The notes below the pieces were generated by a model. That model saw only the letters and a program-made list of their open reading frames with translations. It searched no databases and was not told the DNA's origin. Below are positions 20,455-61,615 of a stretch of 64,000 nt of DNA, piece after piece. How positions within the stretch are numbered: position 1 is the stretch's first letter; each line of letters begins with the position of its first letter. A program made the position numbers and the translations under genes. Origin of the DNA: Eledone cirrhosa (Eukaryota); NCBI GenBank assembly GCA_964016885.1, contig OZ024740.1:224874001-224938000 (forward strand). The letters run 5' to 3'.

Positions 20455-22613
20455 TCATCATCATCATCATCGTCGTTTAACGTCTATCTTCCACGCTAGC
20501 ATGGGTTTAGACGGGAATTGTCCCACGTGAGGCAAGATTGGTTGTCTTGCTCGTATAGGACTGTCTGGCAAGTTTTCTACGGCTGGATGCCCTTCCTAAC
20601 ACCAACCACGTTTACAGTGTGGACTTGGAGGTTTTTACCGTGTTACCTACACGGCCACATTACAGCGTGGACTGTGTGTTTTTTTGTCGTGACACCTACA
20701 CGATCTTATTTATTTAGGACTGGATGTTGTGGCACCAACATAATTTTAGGTGTAGATGGGGTTGGGGGTAAGGTTCCTGGGATGGGGGGGGGGTAAGGAG
20801 GTGCCTACTAACTGTAGGTTTCGCTTTGTACTTAGGCAAGGAGGGTCTTCTGTATTACTGTGTAGCGCCAAAGATCTCGGTCCAGTGACATTGTCTTGGA
20901 GAGGTGTAAGTGTGTAAGGTCGGAATTTATCAAATTGTTCCAGGTTTTTATGGGTCTTCCTACTCCGTAGCTTCCGTCTATTTTAATCGCCCTGCACTTT
21001 TTTATACAGCTGTCGACTTTCATGAGCGTCATATGACCATACCAACGTAGTCTTCTCTCGAGTAAACAGCATCTGATCCCTCTTATTCCTAATTTCTCAC
21101 TTAGTTCGTTTATGCTTTGCCGTTCACGTATCTTACTATTACACATCCAACGGAGCATGCAAGCTCGTTCCTCTCCAGTCTGCGCAGATCCTCTGCACAC
21201 AATGCCCATGTCTCACTGCCATGTAACATTGCTGTTCGTATGCAGGCATCATACAGTCTGCCTTTCATTTTTAGGGAGAAAACTTTAGCGGCCAATAGTG
21301 GTATAAGCTCTCTGAACTTTTTCCATCCCGTTCTGACTCTAGCTATTGTACTTTCAGAGCACCCACCACCACTGCTTATTTTGTCACCCAGGTAACAGAA
21401 GGTGTCTACTATTTCTATAGAACCATCTGGACAGTAGAAAGAGCTAGTATCCTGTGGGCACTTGCTACTACATATTGCACCTGAGCACCGGCCACATATA
21501 AAATCTATGTTCTTGGTTAGTTTACCTGTGATCCCACTACATATTTTATGCACCCATACTTTGGATTTGGGACATCAAATGGAGTTTCTGCCTCCTCCTT
21601 TCCTACACACTGAGCATGGCCATTTCTCAGCGGGGACCAGTGCCCTATTTTCCTTCCTACATACTAGAACTTTAGTCTTAGCGAAGTTAATTTTAAGGCT
21701 TTTGATTCTAGGCTATGCTTCCAAGTTTGGAATTTCTTCTCTAGTTCAGCCATTGATTCAGCTATGAGCGTTAGATCATCTGCATATAAAAGTTTCCATG
21801 GGCAGCCGGTCTTGAACTCCTCTGTTATAGCCTGAAGGGCAATAATAAATAGGAGGGGGATAAGGACAGAGCCCTGATGAAAACCGACTTTTAGGCTAAA
21901 TTCTTCACTATAATCTTTGTTAATTCTAACCTTGCTGACTGTTTCTTTATACATAGCTTGTATAGCTCTCACAAGCCAATCATCAATACCTAGTTTTCTA
22001 AGAGCCCACCAGATAATGGAGCGGGGGACTCTGTCAAAGGTTTTCTCCAAGCCAACAAAAGCTAAGTATAGGGGTTTACTTTTAGCTAGGTACTTCTCCT
22101 GTAGTTGTCGTACAAGGAAAAGAGCATCTGTGGTACCTTTACCTGACACAAACCTAAACTGCATTTCATCTAGATCAATTCGCTCTTAGATTAGTTGTGC
22201 TATAACTTTTTCTGTGACCTTCATGACCTGGTCAATTAATTTAATGCCTCTATAGTCTCCCCTGTCTAAAGCATCTCCTTTACCTTTGTAGCAGTTAATG
22301 ATGCTGCTGCTACGGCAGTCATTTGGTATAACCCCATTCTGTATGACTTGGTTTACTATCCGGGAGATCATAGTGTGTACCACTTATCCAGATGCTTTCA
22401 GCATTTCAGCAACTATCTCCGAAGGCCCAGCTGCTTTGCCTATCTTCATATCTTTGTTTGCCTTACTTATTATACTACCTTCAACTTGCACTGCTGGTCC
22501 CTCTATTGGATCGATTTGGGGCAGACAATCTTTTTCCCACTTATTCTCCTCATTTAGTAGCCTCTCATAGTGACACTTCCAAGCTACCTTATTATCAGTA
22601 TCAGTGATGGCAA
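20455..22613 (-). mobile_element. RTE-clade LINE (family A), 5'-truncated, RT + PHD-like finger + 3' UTR, disrupted
   Basis: ORF pieces 22186..22383, 21664..22164 (HQGSVL, LLYADDL), 21110..21553 (FCYLGD, MLHGSETWA), 20832..21209 (RLRWYGH); (GAT)n tail at 20455-20472; closely similar to 41990-44150. Confidence 0.95.
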
Positions 22614-22651: not shown

Positions 22652-22821
22652 ACAATTCTTTATTAAACATTTTTTTATGAAGTATATAAAGTATATGAGA
22701 AAATTACCGGTTTCGATGTATTAAGATGTCAATTTGACAAGATGGATCTTAGTACATCAAAACCTGTAATTTTCTCATATAGTTTATATACCTCATAAAA
22801 AATTGTTTAAAAAAGAATTGT
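22652..22821. repeat. Fold-back palindrome (~75-bp arms) with hammerhead-like motif
   Basis: 'acaattcttt...gagaaaattaccggtttcgatgtattaagat' is reverse complementary to 'atcttagtacatcaaaacctgtaattttctc...aaagaattgt'. Confidence 0.9.
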
Positions 22822-23027
22822 CCCTCTCGTTTTACAATAACATTATCTCTTTAATAACACTATCTTTTCAATAATGTCACTTTGACGAATCACAAACGAA
22901 AAACAGACCCTTAAATATATCTCCCGTGCTATTTCCAACTTCATCTTTTCTCTATATCCACTGTTTTGTATAGAACCTCACTTCCCTTTTCTAATATATA
23001 TATATATATATATATAAGGAAAAAAGT

Positions 23028-23277
23028 TGAAATCGAAAATGCAATTTTTTAAAATTATATATTTATTTGGTTCCTTTACCGGTTTCGCAGTTCTTGTGCG
23101 TTTCAAGTGTAAAATTGAGATGGAGGGTTTGTGGTTTTTCTCACATCTGAGATGTGAAAAAACCCACAAACCCTCCAAATCAATTGTACTTTTGAAAAGC
23201 ACAAGAACTGCGAAACCGGTAAAGGAACTAGATAAATATATTTAAAAAAAAAGACTCCAGTTGCATTTTCGATTTCA
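23028..23277. repeat. Fold-back palindrome (~120-bp arms, centre 23149) with hammerhead-like motif
   Basis: Centre tcacatct-g-agatgtga; arms pair out to tgaaatcgaaaatgcaa / ttgcattttcgatttca; ORFs 22978..23202(-) and 23027..23245(+) share internal peptide because of the symmetry. Confidence 0.95.
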
Positions 23278-23338
23278 TCTTATACTTTCACTCGTGTAGG
23301 GCACCTCGTTTTCTTTCCATTTTGTAAAAAAAGCTCAC

Positions 23339-23343
<5 letters not shown>

Positions 23344-23399
<56 letters not shown>

Positions 23400-23407
23400 C
23401 ATATATA

Positions 23408-23441
<34 letters not shown>
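23344..23441. repeat. (TA)n microsatellite
   Basis: Direct reading. Confidence 0.95.
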
Positions 23442-23447
<6 letters not shown>

Positions 23448-30763: not shown

Positions 30764-31030
30764 AGGACACATCACAAGGTAGGTTTCAAAATATGATGTA
30801 CCAACCTTTTAGCCGGTAGTCCAGCATGTAATAATTTCAGTTACCTTATAATGGTTTCTAGAGGCAGAGTCATCAAAAGAATTATTGCAAAGTATTATGT
30901 CTGATGTTTTAATGACTCTACCAATTCACTGCCTCTAGACATCATTACTAGGTAACTGAAATGATTACATGCTGGACTACCAGCTAAAGGATTGGTAAAT
31001 CATCTTGAAACCAATGTTGTGATGTTTCCT
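30764..31030. mobile_element. MITE-like fold-back element (~100-bp inverted arms)
   Basis: 'aggacacatcacaa..ggtttcaa..ttagccggtagtccagcatgtaat.atttcagttacct..tctagaggcag' vs 'ctgcctctaga..aggtaactgaaatgattacatgctggactaccagctaa..ttgaaacc..ttgtgatgtttcct'. Confidence 0.85.
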
Positions 31031-40802: not shown

Positions 40803-43800
40803 CCCGTAAGGAGGTTGATGTTTGCTGTATCCAAGAGACCAGGTGGAGGGGTCGGTCTGCTAGATTCATTGTGGGTAAAAAATGATGCTATAAGCTTTTT
40901 GGGTGGGAAATGACAATGGGCTGGGTGGGGAGGGAATCATGTTAGCAGAAAAATGGGTAGATAAGATAATAGACGTAAATAGAGTGAACAACAGAATAAT
41001 TAAAATAAGAATTGTCCTAAATAGAACTATTGTGACAGTAATATCTGCGTACGCACCCCAATCTGGACTGCCTGGTGTTATAAAAGACAGATTCTATGAG
41101 ACATTGATGCTCACTACCTCTCAAATAACTGACAGTGACTACATAATTATTGCTGGCAACCTAAATGGTCACATTGGACAACATTGTGATGGCTTTGACG
41201 GAATCCATGGAGGCTATGGGTTTGGTACTAGAAATGAGGAAGGCTCCAGAATCCTGGAATTCTGTGACGCAAATAACCTAACTATCTGTAACACTAACTT
41301 CAAAACACGAGACAATCACTTGATCACCTATAGATCAGGGGAACACGCCAGTCAGATAGATTATATCCTTACCAGAAGACGTGATAGAGTGTCTGTTGTA
41401 AACACTAAATCCCTCCCCCATGAAGAATGCACCTCCCAACATAGACACATAGTCAACGACCTCATAGTCAGGGCAAGACGTACTCGACAACAGAGGAGGA
41501 CTATTCTCAGGAGAAAAATATGGAAGCTAAAGGACCCCACAGCCAGTGATAAATTTAAAAGCATATTACTTGATGCTTTTGACAGTAAGGAAGAGCAATT
41601 AGAGTCGTACAATATAGAGGAACAGTGGGAATTCCTGAAAACTAACCTGCTGAAGGCGGCAGATGAAGTCTGTGGCCAGAGCAGGCCTTTAGGCAGGAGG
41701 AGAGCAATGTGGTGGTGGAACAGTAAGGTGGAGGAGTCAATCAAGGCCAAAAAGCAGGCTTGGAAAGTATGGCGGGATGGGGGAAGTAGAGAAGACTATG
41801 AAGTGGCTAGGAGGGAAGCTAGGAGACAGGTGTACTTCACAAGAAGGGAAGCAGAAGAAAGAAAGTTCAAGCATGTTCTACAACGCGAGGACAACAAACG
41901 TGAGGCGTTCAGGATTGCTAGGCAATGAGTCAAGGTAAACCGTGATATTGTCGGGGAGAAGTGTGTCCTTAATGATGGTGTACTTGCCAACACTGATACT
42001 GATAAGAAGGTAGCTTGGAAGTGTCACTACGAAAGGCTACTAAATGAGGAGAATAAATGGGAGAAAGACAGTCTCCCCCACATCGATCCAATAGAGGGAC
42101 CAGCAGTGCAAGTTGAAGGTAGTATAATAAGTAAGGCAATCAAAGATATGAAGACTGGTAAGGTGGCTGGGCCTTCGGAAATAGTTGCTGAAATGCTGAA
42201 AGCATCTGGAACGGTGGGACACACTATGGTCACCCGGATAGTAAACCAAGTCATACAGAATGGGGTCGTTCCGAAGGACTGGCGTAGCAGCATCATCATT
42301 AACTGCTACAAGGGAAAAGGAGATGCCTTAGACAGGGGAGACTATAGAGGCATTAAATTAATTGACCAGGTCATGAAGGTCACAGAAAAAGTTATAGCGC
42401 AACTAATCAGAGAGGAAATTAATCTATATGAAATGCAGTTTGGGTTTGTGTCAAGTAAAGGTACCAGAGACACTCTTTTCCTTGTACGACAACTACAGGA
42501 GAAGTACCTAGCTAAAAGTAAACCCCTGTACTTAGCATTTGTTGGCTTGGAGAAAACCTTTGACAGAGTCCTCCGCTCCATTATCTGGTGGGCTCTTAGA
42601 AACTAGGTGTTGATAAATGGCTTGTGAGAGCTATACAAGCCATGTATAAAGAAACAGTCGGCAAGGTTGAATTAACAAAGAATATAGTGAAGAGTTTAGC
42701 GTAAAAGTTGATGTTCATCAGGGCTCCGTTCTTAGCCCCCTACTATTTATTATTGCCCTTCAGGCTATAACAGAGGAGTTCAAGATTGGCTCCCCATGGG
42801 AACTCCTATATGCAGATGATCTAACGCTCATAGCTGAATCAATGGCTGAACTAGAGAAGAAATTCCAAACATGAAAGCATGGTCTAGAATCAAAAGGCCT
42901 TAAAATTAACCTGTCTAAGACTAAAGTTCTAGCTTGGAGGAAGGAAAATAGGGCACTGGTCCCATCTGGGAAATGGCCATGCTCACTGTGTAGGAAAGGA
43001 GTAGGCAGAAACTCCATTTTATGTCCCAAATGCAAAGTATGGGTGCATAAAAGATGTAGTGTGATCACAGGTAAGCTAACTCAGTATATAGATTTTATAT
43101 GTGGCCAGTGCTCAGGTGCAATAAGTAGCAGCAAGTGCCCACAGGATACTAGCTCATTCCATTGCACAGATGGTTCTATAGAAATAGTGGACACCTGTTA
43201 CCTGGGTGACAAAATCAGCAGTGGTGAATGGTCCTCTGAATGTACAGTAGCTAGAGTCAGAACGGGATGGAAAAAGTTCAGAGATCTTATACCACTATTG
43301 GCCACTAAAGGTTTCTCTCTAAAAATGAAAGGCAGGCTGTATGATGCCTGCATACGAACAACAATGTTACATGGCAGTGAGACTTGGGCATTGTGTGCAG
43401 AGGATATACGCAGACTGGAGAGGAACGAAGCTTGCATGCTCCGCTGTATGTGTAATAGTAATATACGTGAACGGCAAAGCATAAACGAACTAAGGGAGAA
43501 ATTAGGAATAAGAGGGATCAGATGTTTTTTACTCAAGAGAAGACTACGTTTGTACGGTCATATGATGCGCATGAAACACGACAGTTGTATAAAAAAAGTT
43601 GAGCGTGATAAAAATAGACGGTAGCCACAGAGTAGGCAGACCCAGAAAAACCTGGGACGACTTGATAAATTCCAACCTCACACACTTACATCTCTCCAAG
43701 ACAATGTCACTGGACTGAGATCTTTGGCACTACACAGTAATACAGAAGACCCTCGTTGCCTAAGTACAAAGCGAAACCTACAGTTAGTAGGCACCTCTAA

Positions 43801-44150
43801 CAAAAATACACCCCCGTCCCACTACCCTATCCACACCACACCTTTCAATGTAAAGTTATATTGGTACCACAACATCCAGTCCAAATAAATGAGGTCGTAT
43901 AGGTGTCACAAAAAAAACACACACACACAGCCCACGCTGTAATGTGGCCATGTAGGTAACACGGTAAAAACCTCCCAGTCCACACTGTAAACGTGGTTGG
44001 TGTTAGGAAGGGCATCCAGCCGTAGAAAACCTGCCAGACAGTCCTATACGAGCAAGACAACCAATCTTGCCTCAAGTGGGAAAATTCCCATCCAAACCCA
44101 TGCAAGTGTGGAAGATGGACGTTAAACGATGATGATGATGATGATGATGA
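40803..44150 (+). mobile_element. Near-full-length RTE-clade LINE (family A): APE endonuclease, RT, PHD-like finger, 3' UTR, (GAT)n tail; disrupted
   Basis: DVCCIQETRW at the 5' edge; ORF 40903..41928 (VISAYAPQ, IIAGNLNGHIG, SQIDYIL, SQHR); ORF 42106..42606 (YRGIKL, MQFGF); HQGSVLSP and LLYADDL near 42715-42825; ORF 43043..43624; tail 'gacgttaaacgatgatgat'. Confidence 0.97.
40903..43763 (+). pseudogene. Disrupted LINE ORF (endonuclease-reverse transcriptase polyprotein)
   Basis: Consecutive ORF pieces separated by stops (41926, 42872) and frameshifts; domain order EN-RT-C-terminal RWYGH/GRPRKTW. Confidence 0.9.
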
Positions 44151-44159
44151 TATATATAT

Positions 44160-45262
44160 ATCATCATCATCATCATTATTATGTCCTATTTGCCACACTT
44201 GCATCGGTTGGATGGGTCATTTTCAGCATGGCAGCTCCCCACATGTCATGATCCTTTGTCATCTCCTCTATGAGTCTCAGTGATTTGAGTTCTGCTCAGT
44301 TTTTTCTTGGTCTACCTCTACCACAGCTTCCTTCCACTGACATTTCATGATATTTCTTCACCCAATGATCATTTTCCATGTGCATCACATGTCCAAACCC
44401 ACACAGCCTTCTCTCCTGCATACCACCTCTTAAACCCAACTCATTCAAGTTCTGCCTTTCTTTCACACTAACATTTCACATCTAATGGAGCATGATTGCT
44501 TCCTTTCTTCTCAGTCTACACATGTCCTTTGCAGTCACAGCCCATGCAGCATCTTTCTTTGGCCACAAGTGTCTTACAGTCATCCTTTTTTACATAGGGA
44601 GAAATCTTTTGTGGTTAACAGTTGGAGTAGCTTCTAGAAATGTTTCCATCTCATACTTCTTCTAGCTATTATTGTCTCAGAACACCCTCCTCCATTGCTA
44701 ATTACGTCACCTAGGTAGCAAAATCTATCAACCAATTTTATGGGTCCTTCCTATAACTGGCTATCTTCTCCCTGGTTACCCCCATGCATTTTCTACAAAC
44801 AAAGTCTTCCTTTCCTGTTAGTTTACCTGATATCCCTCTACATCTCTTATATATCCAAGATTCACATTATATATATTGTATGAAGTTTATGCCTAATCTT
44901 TTTTTAGAAAGGCCACTTCCTTGAAGGAATCAGCGTCCTATCTTCTCTTCTATTCACTAGCACTGTAGTTTAGGCTAAGTTTACTCTCAGGCCATTTGAT
45001 TCTATATTCTGTTTCTATAGTCGGAACTTATTATCTAAATCTTTAATGGATTTGGCTATAAGGTCCAGATCATCTGCATAGAGAAGTTCCCATGGTCTTA
45101 AACTCCTCTGTTATAGAATGGAGAACTATTAGGAATGGTAATGGGCTAAAAACCGAACTTTGATGAAATCCTACTTGTACCTTGAATTCCTCACTAAACT
45201 CGTTTCCTACTCTCACTTTGCTGATAGCTCCTCTGTACATAGCTTACACTGCCCTCACCATT
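44160..45262 (-). mobile_element. Older RTE LINE 3' portion, tail-to-tail with the 40803-44150 element
   Basis: Minus strand: VQVGFHQSSVFSP, PWELLYADDL, DRFCYLGDVISNGGGCSE, GHVMHMEND, GRGRPRK; (GAT)n tail at 44160-44176. Confidence 0.88.
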
Positions 45263-59220: not shown

Positions 59221-59470
59221 AGAGAAACATAATTAAGTGAGTCATTGATAGACAAATACTTTTTCTGCATCCTTGGCCACTGGTCTGCCACTCTCTTCTG
59301 CCAAGTTGAGGTGAAGTAATGGGAAGCACTTGGAGGTAGAGTGGTGGATGTAGCAATGATTTTGATAGAGTTTTCAAGGTGCAATGTTGAGCCAAATTAT
59401 TTAAGAGAAAAAGTGTAGAATTTGTTTAGAATTGAAATAGAAATAGAGGCTTTGTTGTAATATTTTTAAC

Positions 59471-59590
59471 TATATAATATAGTCTAATAATGGGGGATAT
59501 AAACCCACTGAATGGAAAAAGGTGGGTATCAGTACACATTCTTTTCCATTCAGTGGGTTTATATACCCAATTATTAGACAATACTATATA
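59471..59590. repeat. Fold-back palindrome (~55-bp arms)
   Basis: 'gtctaataatgggggatataaacccactgaatggaaaa' vs 'ttttccattcagtgggtttatatacccaattattagac'. Confidence 0.88.
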
Positions 59591-61313
59591 TTCAAAATAT
59601 TATGGTGAATCTTCTATTTGTATTTCGGTCACTGTGTTCCAAATATACGTCTGTAGAATTTGTTTATTTCAAGCTTGTCTAAATAGTTTACAATAAACAA
59701 AATATATCTTAAGTAATAAAAGTACAACATTTATAAGTGATATTATTTAGTTTTGCTTAATCAGGTGGGCGGACTACTCTCATAAACTGCTATTGAAAAG
59801 CAAAATGTTAACCTACTAGAGAGGAGAACGTACAGAGATGTTAGTATGCAAGCTGAAGCTTGTTTTAAAGGAAGTTATATATTAATTTGTACCTGACAAA
59901 CGTAGGCTTAATATGCAGGTCAGATTTGAACACATGCCATGCTAATATTTTTCAGTGACAAAGCTTCTTGATTATGACCAAAGATGACAGAACAAATCTG
60001 CTATAGTCTGCTAAGTAGATATGTTATTAAATACAGGTGAATGAGGTTCTAAGAGTAATTAGGGCTACATGTATATTGCAAGCAAGACTAGAATGGGCAG
60101 CATTCTTTGTGAATGATTTTGTGTACGGAGGGTTGATCATCAGGGCTGTGAATTTAATGCGCTTTTTACCAATATAATCCTTAAAGCAAGAAGATAAGTA
60201 TTTATTGTGTTAGAAACTTGTATCTAGAAATTATCTGGTTCATATTTAAGAATTTTCTGAATATCGACAGAAATTGTATCAAGCCTAGATACCTAGACAG
60301 ACACTTCTATTTGCTCTGCCACTGTCAAGACATCATACAACTTGCCACGCATTTTCACTAATGATGTTATATGGAAATAGTCTCCATGCTTTGAAAAACA
60401 ATGGTATGTCACTTTCATCCTCACACTTTCTCAGGCAAATTCCTCAGGCAAAAAGTCAGTCATTTCTGTCATATCTCTTCTCTAATTCTTTTGTCTGTAG
60501 TTCGCTCATGTTAAACATTCCCCCTCTTGAAACAAGCAAATGTATCCCTGTTGTTGTTGGTAGTGGTGTTTTGGTATAGTAATTTCTTAACTGTTTGTGT
60601 CCTTAACTGTGTCTGTCTAATTGTTATTTTTGGCATTTTGCTTTATGTTTTTGTATATTTGTTTTCATATTTTCAAAAAAATATGAAAACAAATATAAAT
60701 GTTGCTAACACTGTTGTGTTTAGTACATCCCACTGCTGTCATATTTGTAATCATTTTAGATCACCAATAAATAATAAAGTTGGCTTCAATACAAAAAATA
60801 TATACATGGTTAAAACACTGTTTAGACAAACTTTTTTCACTCTATGAAATGGGGTGGATGTTTTAATATTCCAAAATCCTTTTTCAGTCAAAAGTAGCAA
60901 ATATGCCTTTTTGTCATGAAGTAATCCTAGGAGAGAATATTTTCCAAGCAGATCTCTTGGAAATTTGACAGTTTACAGCAAATAACAACAACAACAATAA
61001 CATTAAAGATTTATAATTCAAGCAGAAGGCTAGTAATTTGGGGGAAGGGAAAGTTATTAAATTGACACAAGTATTTGAGTGGTATTTTATTTTGTAAACG
61101 CCAAAAGGGTGAAATGCAATGTTAACCATAGTGGGAATTGAAATCAGAAATATAAAGAGAAAGAACAAATTTTGCATAACCCATGCCTGATGTTCTAATG
61201 AACCTGCCAATCAACCACCCCAAAAAACATGTTATTTATTGTGTTTTATATATTAATGGTCATAAGTTTCAGTATTCACTAAATAAGACTACTGAAAAAA
61301 AATTAAACTAAAC

Positions 61314-61406: not shown

Positions 61407-61482
61407 CGAAGGAAATGTGGTAAGGAACCAGGTGGACCATAACGCACCAAAGTACTCAATACTTAAGGTAGTAGAGTGGGTA

Positions 61483-61611
61483 ATAGGAACGAGTAGGACC
61501 CCGACGGCTGAGCTCAAGCCGTTTCGACAGCTAATTCTGGACTCAGAATTCTGGAGTCCAGAATTAGCCGTCGAAACGGCTTGAGCTCAGCCGTCGGGGT
61601 CCTACTCGTTC

Positions 61612-61615
<4 letters not shown>
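61483..61615. repeat. Near-perfect GC-rich palindrome (~60-bp arms) with hammerhead helix III and GUC
   Basis: 'ataggaacgagtaggaccccgacggctgagctcaagccgtttcgacagctaattctggactc' mirrors 'gagtccagaattagccgtcgaaacggcttgagctcagccgtcggggtcctactcgttcctat'. Confidence 0.95.

What the first reader, a model, noticed from the sequence alone, without database searches (positions are those of the whole stretch)
23017..23343. Palindrome 2: sequence-unrelated fold-back carrying the same UUGANAA...GAAACCGGUA architecture on both strands
Seen: right arm TTGAAAA (23192-23198) GCA-caagaac-TGC GAAACCGGTA (23212-23221); the left arm gives TTGAAAC GCA-caagaac-TGC GAAACCGGTA on the minus strand. Outside this motif it does not resemble palindrome 1, and helix II differs (GCA/TGC vs GATG/CATC), which is what structural conservation would look like. 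Together with 22652 and 61483 this suggests a class of small, TA-embedded, ORF-less fold-back elements built from ribozyme-bearing termini, with a non-canonical core (C3U, G8A) shared by two families. Penelope origin and activity are inference.
Basis: partly seen in the sequence, partly recalled or inferred. Interest (0 to 1): 0.72.

Follow-up and report, generated by a model that had tools for sequence, protein, structure and literature searches.

The report
Penelope stub joined at RNA start
This DNA palindrome is two short back-to-back copies of the end of a very abundant Penelope-type jumping gene, likely made when both cut ends of the target DNA primed copying of an RNA that starts just after a promoter-like TATA box; its ribozyme-like motif is a published variant that was likely read through uncut.

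Summary
The palindrome and both motifs are real, but this is no ORF-less class. The arms are the terminus (pseudo-LTR) of a 4.87-kb Neptune-type Penelope-like element with RT and GIY-YIG domains: 26 of 29 loci picked by the ORF carry it downstream in sense; its core has 12,656 exact hits. In 63 of 76 palindromic copies one arm has a 59-bp tail and the other lacks it, the known Penelope signature. The U3-A8 core and opposite-strand motif pairs were published in 2014. What adds: arms meet at one spot 30 nt after TATAAAA (1,637 palindromes; 2 just upstream, 16 at the predicted ribozyme cut), and either arm can be the longer one. Most likely two target-primed cDNAs ran off the 5' end of an uncut sense RNA and were joined. 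No RNA data were available. The left motif is mutated, and a read-through RNA would form one long hairpin. The scan's earlier notes reached a similar reading on other DNA of this genome.

The parts
22994..23016 (.). (TA)n target tract, shared with the tail end of the neighbouring family-1 element
   Evidence: sequence
23011..23149 (-). Left arm: element terminus from position -1 to +152 (tail-less end; its last bases merge with the TA tract)
   Evidence: alignment to a natural tandem copy L152, 82%
23077..23106 (-). Decayed hammerhead-type motif (A9C; helix I 2.1/2.2 changed)
23149..23150 (.). Head-to-head junction at the predicted transcription start (+1 = A of CC|AGATG, 30 nt after TATAAAA in longer copies); the arms abut without overlap
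   Evidence: hotspot counts
23150..23343 (+). Right arm: element terminus +1 to +211, tail included
   Evidence: 81% to L152 terminus
23189..23224 (+). Minimal type I hammerhead-type motif: helix I 3 bp (23189-91 with 23222-24), U3-A8 core 23192-98, helix II 3 bp 23199-23211, GAAA 23212-15, palindromic ACCGGT helix III, predicted cut after 23221
   Evidence: activity not tested
23285..23343 (+). 59-bp tail between the two inferred reverse-transcription start sites (+152, +211); in tandem copies the ORF's ATG follows about 30 nt later
23345..23443 (.). (TA)n target tract
   Evidence: sequence
22652..22993 (+). Palindrome 1 with its one-sided extension: terminus of another Penelope-like family (U3-A8 motif)
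   Evidence: 2 of 30 loci of its core carry a GIY-YIG ORF end upstream in sense, 49-63% to P0001; 50 exact 24-mer hits

Best explanation
The palindrome is a truncated insertion of an abundant Neptune-type Penelope-like retrotransposon, likely made by two target-primed cDNAs that each ran off the 5' end of an uncut sense RNA and were joined head to head. Shown: family identity, RT plus GIY-YIG ORF upstream in longer copies, 4.87-kb tandem unit, reciprocal +152/+211 ends in TA tracts, a sharp stop at +1, and very few stops at the ribozyme cut. Inferred steps: (1) a TATA/CCAAT promoter in the 3' UTR starts RNA at +1, so the motif lies in a 5' leader of about 240 nt before the next ORF; (2) the endonuclease nicks both strands of (TA)n; (3) one nick primes at +211 and the other at +152; (4) both cDNAs read through the hammerhead and stop at the RNA 5' end (this copy), or one continues into the upstream unit (long copies); (5) the cDNA 3' ends are joined blunt or through 1-4 nt of microhomology and filled in. 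The stub has lost promoter and ORF and is predicted to be a dead end.
For: ORF link: 27 of 30 ORF-picked loci (26 of 29 without the query locus) carry the terminus in sense 0.45-1.5 kb after the stop; 3 of 30 loci picked only by Pfam GIY-YIG belong to this family; RVT_1 and GIY-YIG in one frame. Architecture TA-[inverted end]-ORF-UTR-end-TA and a head-to-tail tandem. Reciprocal ends in 63 of 76 palindromic copies and in all 9 two-ended long insertions among 20 long loci; Frangieh 2024 showed in vitro that the tail lies between two RT start sites and that both strands are cut and extended. Stop at +1: 1,637 palindromes centred there, 286 in the next window downstream, 2 upstream, 16 at the cut site; in the first 30 core hits (22 insertions, not picked for shape) 15 have their longest arm ending at -2 to +11, TA-flanked solo ends included. 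TATAAAA at -30 and CCAAT at -80; a YATAAAA word sits at like distance in a sister family and an older subfamily. Two primings: among 61 copies the arm reaching further 5' is tailed in 30, tail-less in 20, tied in 11; the ORF-bearing arm lacks the tail in 2 of 9 long insertions.
Against: No RNA evidence for the start site; promoter consensus positions are recalled knowledge. Many junctions fit a cis snap-back equally well. Small deletions at the hairpin tip could randomise which arm is longer in short copies. Same-template origin is not settled: arms share 19 rare variants (0.75 expected, max 4 in 300 re-pairings) and subfamily haplotype in 45 of 48, but conversion between arms could do this, and in 14 longer copies only 1 rare variant was shared against 31 single. 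The four pattern counts differ in word length and gap (11-mers with gap up to 12 at the cut site, 13-mers with gap up to 20 elsewhere) and need exact arms, so ratios are rough.
Confidence: 0.7

Rival explanations
1. Same element, but the mirror arm comes from self-priming: one cDNA (or an antisense RNA, as Arkhipova 2013 proposed) folds back on itself and is copied.
For: Several junction classes read as a 3' end pairing 2-4 nt with its own strand over 2-10 nt loops; shared rare variants between arms; L092 has a perfect short hairpin at its centre; published hypothesis (PMC3846280).
Against: A cDNA begun at +152 cannot give its copy the tail, yet the tail-less arm is the longer in 20 of 50 untied copies and in 2 of 9 long insertions; the commonest junction class and this copy have 0-1 nt loops; many insertions join arms that stop at different positions, up to kilobases apart.
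Confidence: 0.14
2. Same element and two primings, but +1 is not a transcription start: it is an RT pause or a processed RNA end.
For: No RNA data; the site reads CAG|ATG like a splice acceptor; 7 of 22 insertions pass it.
Against: Arms often include the CAG itself, which a spliced end would drop; TATA at -30 and CCAAT at -80 fit a start; read-through copies are expected from tandem transcripts.
Confidence: 0.1
3. One reading: a non-autonomous palindromic element that spreads as a unit and uses its ribozymes (retrozyme-like).
For: At least 1,637 near-identical short palindromes; the motif is on both strands; U3-A8 can be active.
Against: Continuous range of arm lengths into the ORF; the 7 junction/polarity classes seen 3 or more times mostly span several haplotypes (6 of 7); the promoter is missing from the stub; a read-through RNA folds into one -150 kcal/mol hairpin that hides both motifs; no tandem monomers.
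Confidence: 0.04
4. MITE of a DNA transposon with long TIRs and TA duplications.
For: Long inverted arms, TA flanks, high copy number.
Against: Ends are unequal by 59 bp in 63 of 76 copies; the parent encodes RT and GIY-YIG, not a transposase.
Confidence: 0.01

Closest known systems
Neptune clade of EN+ Penelope-like elements (Craig et al. 2021, PMC8557442; I read the abstract, sections 3 and 11, passages, and supplement search rows)
   Same: RT then C-terminal GIY-YIG; GxKF, DKG, CX4CxxC linker with a 24-residue spacer to the next Cys (25-27 in the two Neptune rows, 7 in the two Nematis rows of the supplement), two Cys between GIY and YIG; partial tandems, inverted 5'-truncated copy, one-sided tail, (TA)n targets.
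   Different: Tail is 59 bp (30-40 bp described); short symmetric stubs joined at one site are a main product; no tree against reference Neptune proteins was built.
Minimal hammerheads of metazoan PLEs, U3-A8 variant (Cervera & de la Pena 2014, PMC4209133; parts 1-2 of 4 read: abstract, results, discussion)
   Same: Type I motif in the pseudo-LTR, U3-A8 pair (about 1,300 hits in Schistosoma), G10.1-C11.1, palindromic helix III that needs a dimer, pairs on opposite strands 100-700 bp apart.
   Different: Helix II is 3-4 bp (7-8 in Schistosoma), helix I 3-4 contiguous bp, no extra base between 9 and 10.1; U3-A8 is the dominant form of this motif type here (20,251 against 99 C3-G8).
Poseidon PAc of Anolis (Frangieh et al. 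2024, PMC11167929; parts 1-2 of 4 read: abstract, main text, start of methods)
   Same: Two internal RT start sites bounding the tail, both target strands cut and extended, hammerhead cleavage not needed for insertion.
   Different: Here both start sites lie in the leader before the ATG and coincide with TATA/TAATA words that match the target, whereas PAc starts inside the ORF without homology; PAc's core is C3-G8.
Adineta vaga Penelope inverted structures (PMC3846280; passages only)
   Same: Inverted pLTR, optional tail, TATA and Inr-like words in the pLTR, palindromes at the junction.
   Different: That paper favours self-priming on an antisense template; the data here favour a sense template ending at the predicted start.
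Animal non-LTR retrozymes (bioRxiv 10.64898/2026.07.22.740005; parts 1-2 of 5 read)
   Same: PLE-related, type I hammerhead, ORF-less.
   Different: Retrozymes are head-to-tail tandem monomers; this is a head-to-head stub of an ORF-bearing element.

Membership tests
EN+ Penelope-like element | RT and GIY-YIG endonuclease in one ORF, in the parent element | tested here: met
   RVT_1 (E 2e-7 to 8e-6) and GIY-YIG (E 1e-6 to 9e-6) in L122 and L137; RVT_1 passes its cut-off in 1 of 3 proteins; link to terminus
EN+ Penelope-like element | Tandem/partial tandem pseudo-LTR and inverted 5'-truncated copy | tested here: met
   L152/L153 tandem, L150 partial tandem, inverted ends in 10 of 20 long loci
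EN+ Penelope-like element | Tail at one end only | tested here: met
   63 of 76 short copies; 9 of 9 two-ended long insertions
Neptune clade | CX2-5CxxC linker, GxKF, DKG, CCHH-type EN, (TA)n bias | tested here: met
Neptune clade | Placement in the Neptune clade of an RT tree | not tested
Hydra clade | DKT, CxCX5C linker, no CCHH, under 3 kb | tested here: not met
   DKG, CX4CxxC, 4.87-kb unit
Minimal type I hammerhead | Core nucleotides with a 3-8 pair, G12-A15, NUH | tested here: met
   right arm and family majority; not met in the left arm (A9C)
Minimal type I hammerhead | Helices I, II, III next to the core | tested here: inconclusive
   3 bp, 3 bp and 2 bp with a 2-nt palindromic loop; the isolated motif's MFE is another fold; no Rfam hammerhead hit
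Minimal type I hammerhead | Covariation | tested here: inconclusive
   Between families helix II and the 3-8 pair differ while pairing (no statistics); within the family single changes (155 C3-A8, 114 U3-G8) occur and double changes are 1-2, as drift predicts
Minimal type I hammerhead | Self-cleavage | not testable with these tools
   needs an assay; only 16 palindromes meet at the cut site
Non-LTR retrozyme | Head-to-tail tandem monomers each with a hammerhead, no ORF-bearing parent unit | tested here: not met
MITE | Equal TIR ends, fixed length, transposase partner | tested here: not met

The most novel reading that the evidence does not exclude
These thousands of stubs are a genomic run-off map showing that Penelope-like elements copy a capped sense RNA from both target nicks, straight through an uncut hammerhead, and that in a whole Neptune lineage the U3-A8 hammerhead has stopped cutting and is kept or decaying as a non-catalytic leader element. 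That would settle the sense-versus-antisense template question and explain how inverted pseudo-LTRs form.
Probability: 0.45. Interest if true: 0.62.

Novelty: new member of a known kind. Interest (0 to 1): 0.38.

Why it matters
As an object it is one of thousands of dead stubs of a known retrotransposon class. Its use is mechanistic: how Penelope-like elements form head-to-head ends, which RNA strand they copy and whether the hammerhead must cut are stated as open in the papers read. This family gives one predicted start base, two predicted RT start sites and a predicted lack of cleavage, each testable by 5' end mapping or an in vitro assay. It also warns that hammerhead-like motifs on both strands of a palindrome are a by-product of insertion, not an ambisense ribozyme element.

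Tried and rejected
Rfam scan of the window: only miRNA-like hairpin hits below gathering score at this locus, no hammerhead family. Fold-back at the ribozyme cut as the origin of the palindrome: 16 cases, of which 7 are centred on the native ACCGGT; rejected as the main route. Copy-level selection on the core: A/T core positions 13 of 1,088 changed against 45 of 5,201 non-core; none seen. Within-family C3-G8 relatives: of 11 picked canonical-core loci, one (L284) is a true family relative, three (L285, L288, L289) are junction or deletion chimeras, the rest are other families. A-to-G editing marks noted by an earlier agent: not seen; A>G 10 and T>C 12 of 195 substitutions, at most 3 per copy. 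No ORF of this family in the window itself. Sequence look-up in earlier findings gave nothing. Przybilski & Hammann 2007 on the 3-8 pair was not held; U3-A8 activity is taken from a passage of Perreault 2011. Literature searches listed no paper on this family or on a start-site hotspot; most subscription papers and Repbase are not covered, and supplements of the 2014 and 2024 papers were not read.

Full report
Observation. The inverted repeat (23024-23281, 82%) and both motifs are present as described; its folding energy is far below shuffles. The reported span also holds an unpaired 59-bp extension, 23285-23343. The left motif carries A9C and two changes in helix I; 119 of 122 sampled family arms have A at that place.

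Family. A DNA search gave 2,058 candidates, 40 scored. A 26-nt core has 12,656 exact hits, control 0. Among the first 100 listed hits, inverted pairs lie 89 to 3,703 bp apart, so length is not fixed. One long pair (L092) enclosed the 3' end of a GIY-YIG ORF continuous with the terminus. Searching with that ORF piece gave 30 loci; 27 carry the window's right arm downstream in sense (26 of 29 without the query locus), one has a 25-nt match and two have none within the 1.5-kb flank. Independently, 3 of 30 loci picked by Pfam GIY-YIG are this family, and 21 of those 30 have a U3-A8-type motif downstream in sense. The protein has RVT_1 and GIY-YIG, GxKF, DKG, a CX4CxxC linker and two Cys inside the GIY-YIG motif. 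By the clade descriptions and alignment rows in Craig 2021 this is Neptune-type and not Hydra; no tree was made.

Architecture. Twenty long loci, taken from the ORF hits, show TA, inverted terminus, truncated ORF, UTR, terminus, TA; L152/L153 is a head-to-tail tandem with a 4,871-bp unit. The ORF's ATG follows the tail by about 30 nt, so the terminus is also the next unit's leader. Ends fall at +152 or +211. Of 76 palindromic copies (21, 46, 9; picked for a palindromic centre, not for ends) 63 have one of each, 2 have two tails (one of these, L181, through a second partial copy next to it), 1 has none, 10 are interrupted. All 9 long insertions with both ends are reciprocal. Frangieh 2024 showed that such a tail lies between two RT start sites.

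Where the arms meet. Taking A of CC|AGATG as +1, TATAAAA lies at -30 and CCAAT at -80; that these are standard Pol II positions is my own knowledge. Exact-arm palindrome counts: 1,637 centred at +1, 286 in the next window downstream (many with one arm still reaching +4), 2 upstream, 16 at the predicted cut after +72 (word lengths and gaps differ). In the first 30 core hits, 22 insertions, 15 have their longest arm ending between -2 and +11, some as solo ends against TA. A YATAAAA word lies at like distance in a sister family and an older subfamily. The window copy is a blunt join of -1 and +1. No RNA run was listed, so the start site is inferred.

One priming or two. In 61 scored copies the further-reaching arm is tailed in 30, tail-less in 20, tied in 11; the ORF-bearing arm lacks the tail in L150 and L157. 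A single cDNA begun at +152 could not give its mirror copy the tail, which favours two primings. Arms of a copy differ by 2.8% against 5.7% between copies, share 19 rare variants (0.75 expected; 134 are single-arm) and agree in haplotype in 45 of 48. That fits one template or one source locus, but arm-to-arm conversion is not excluded: 14 longer copies (L160 left out by my script) shared 1 rare variant against 31 single. Junction classes recur across haplotypes and tail polarities, which argues against a master palindrome.

The ribozyme. The right motif fits a minimal type I hammerhead with U3-A8, G10.1-C11.1, GUA triplet and a palindromic helix III. U3-A8 in PLE motifs and opposite-strand pairs 100-700 bp apart are in Cervera & de la Pena 2014; natural U3-A8 and earlier in vitro activity are noted in Perreault 2011 (passages). 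Genome counts with GAAACCGGTH: U3-A8 20,251, C3-G8 99, C3-A8 155, U3-G8 114, controls 26, 5, 19, 11. Related families differ in helix II while keeping pairs, and some have C3-G8, which supports hammerhead ancestry; this is qualitative. Against present activity: short helices, an alternative MFE fold, full masking in a read-through hairpin, background mutation of the core, A13C in 7 motifs of a sister family and a U.U closing pair in another (one sister copy, L299, keeps GAAA), and the rarity of joins at the cut. PAc inserts without cleavage.

Neighbours. Palindrome 1 is the terminus of another PLE family. The 61483 family has reciprocal ends in TA tracts and about 99% identity among hits, but no 5' core and no PLE ORF in 20 loci.

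Earlier notes. After forming the start-site idea (note) I found that other agents had read other palindromes of this genome the same way. These are unchecked notes and not independent support; several file their families under Hydra, which does not fit this one. The label 'octopus' comes from those notes and my impression, not from a call that names the genome.

Verdict. A real feature, a new family of a known kind. The Penelope assignment is about 0.95 sure, the full mechanism about 0.7. Interest 0.38, resting on the testable start-site and read-through inference.

Noticed in passing
window 61408-61615; L254-L273: Young (about 99% identity; 1,416 candidates, 40 scored) TA-embedded family with PLE-type reciprocal ends; copies often begin at a T-run before AGTCCAG; has GAAAC-stem-GTC but no 5' hammerhead core or ORF seen. 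Possibly a non-autonomous element mobilised by a PLE.
   Followed up: partly
L069, L071, L074, L077, L084, L087, L089: Sister Neptune-type family whose motif reads GCAACCGGTA (A13C), with a homologous TATA-like word and CAGAT start; L299 of this family ends at CAGAT against TA.
   Followed up: partly
L061-L088 group (e.g. L062): Third family with TTGATAA core and a U.U pair closing helix II, about 470 bp after the GIY-YIG match.
   Followed up: partly
window 22960-22993 and 23325-23343: Tails of families 1 and 2 end in similar words (CTCACTT...TTCTAA), a candidate shared RT start motif.
   Followed up: no
L286, L287, L290, L291, L300: Older families with the same ACCGGT helix III, some with C3-G8 and one with U3-A8: material for a proper covariation test.
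   Followed up: partly
L274-L282 type: Most canonical-core hits belong to one family reading CTGATGAT...GAAACCGGTC; not examined.
   Followed up: no
L092 1042-1697 and 3173-4250: The 3' UTR holds a roughly 330-bp subrepeat whose number differs between copies and between the two arms of one insertion.
   Followed up: no
window 30764-31030, 59434-59626, 44080-44224: Three more fold-backs (76-79% arms); the third is two copies of a common repeat around a microsatellite.
   Followed up: no
window 20835-22612 and 40894-43621: Broken LINE copies with RT and endonuclease domains (RTE-type label recalled); the first is cut by the TA tract that holds palindromes 1 and 2.
   Followed up: partly
G000:C1:348863669-348911675: Six C3-A8 copies spaced about 9.6 kb apart: a tandem amplification carrying one family copy.
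   Followed up: no
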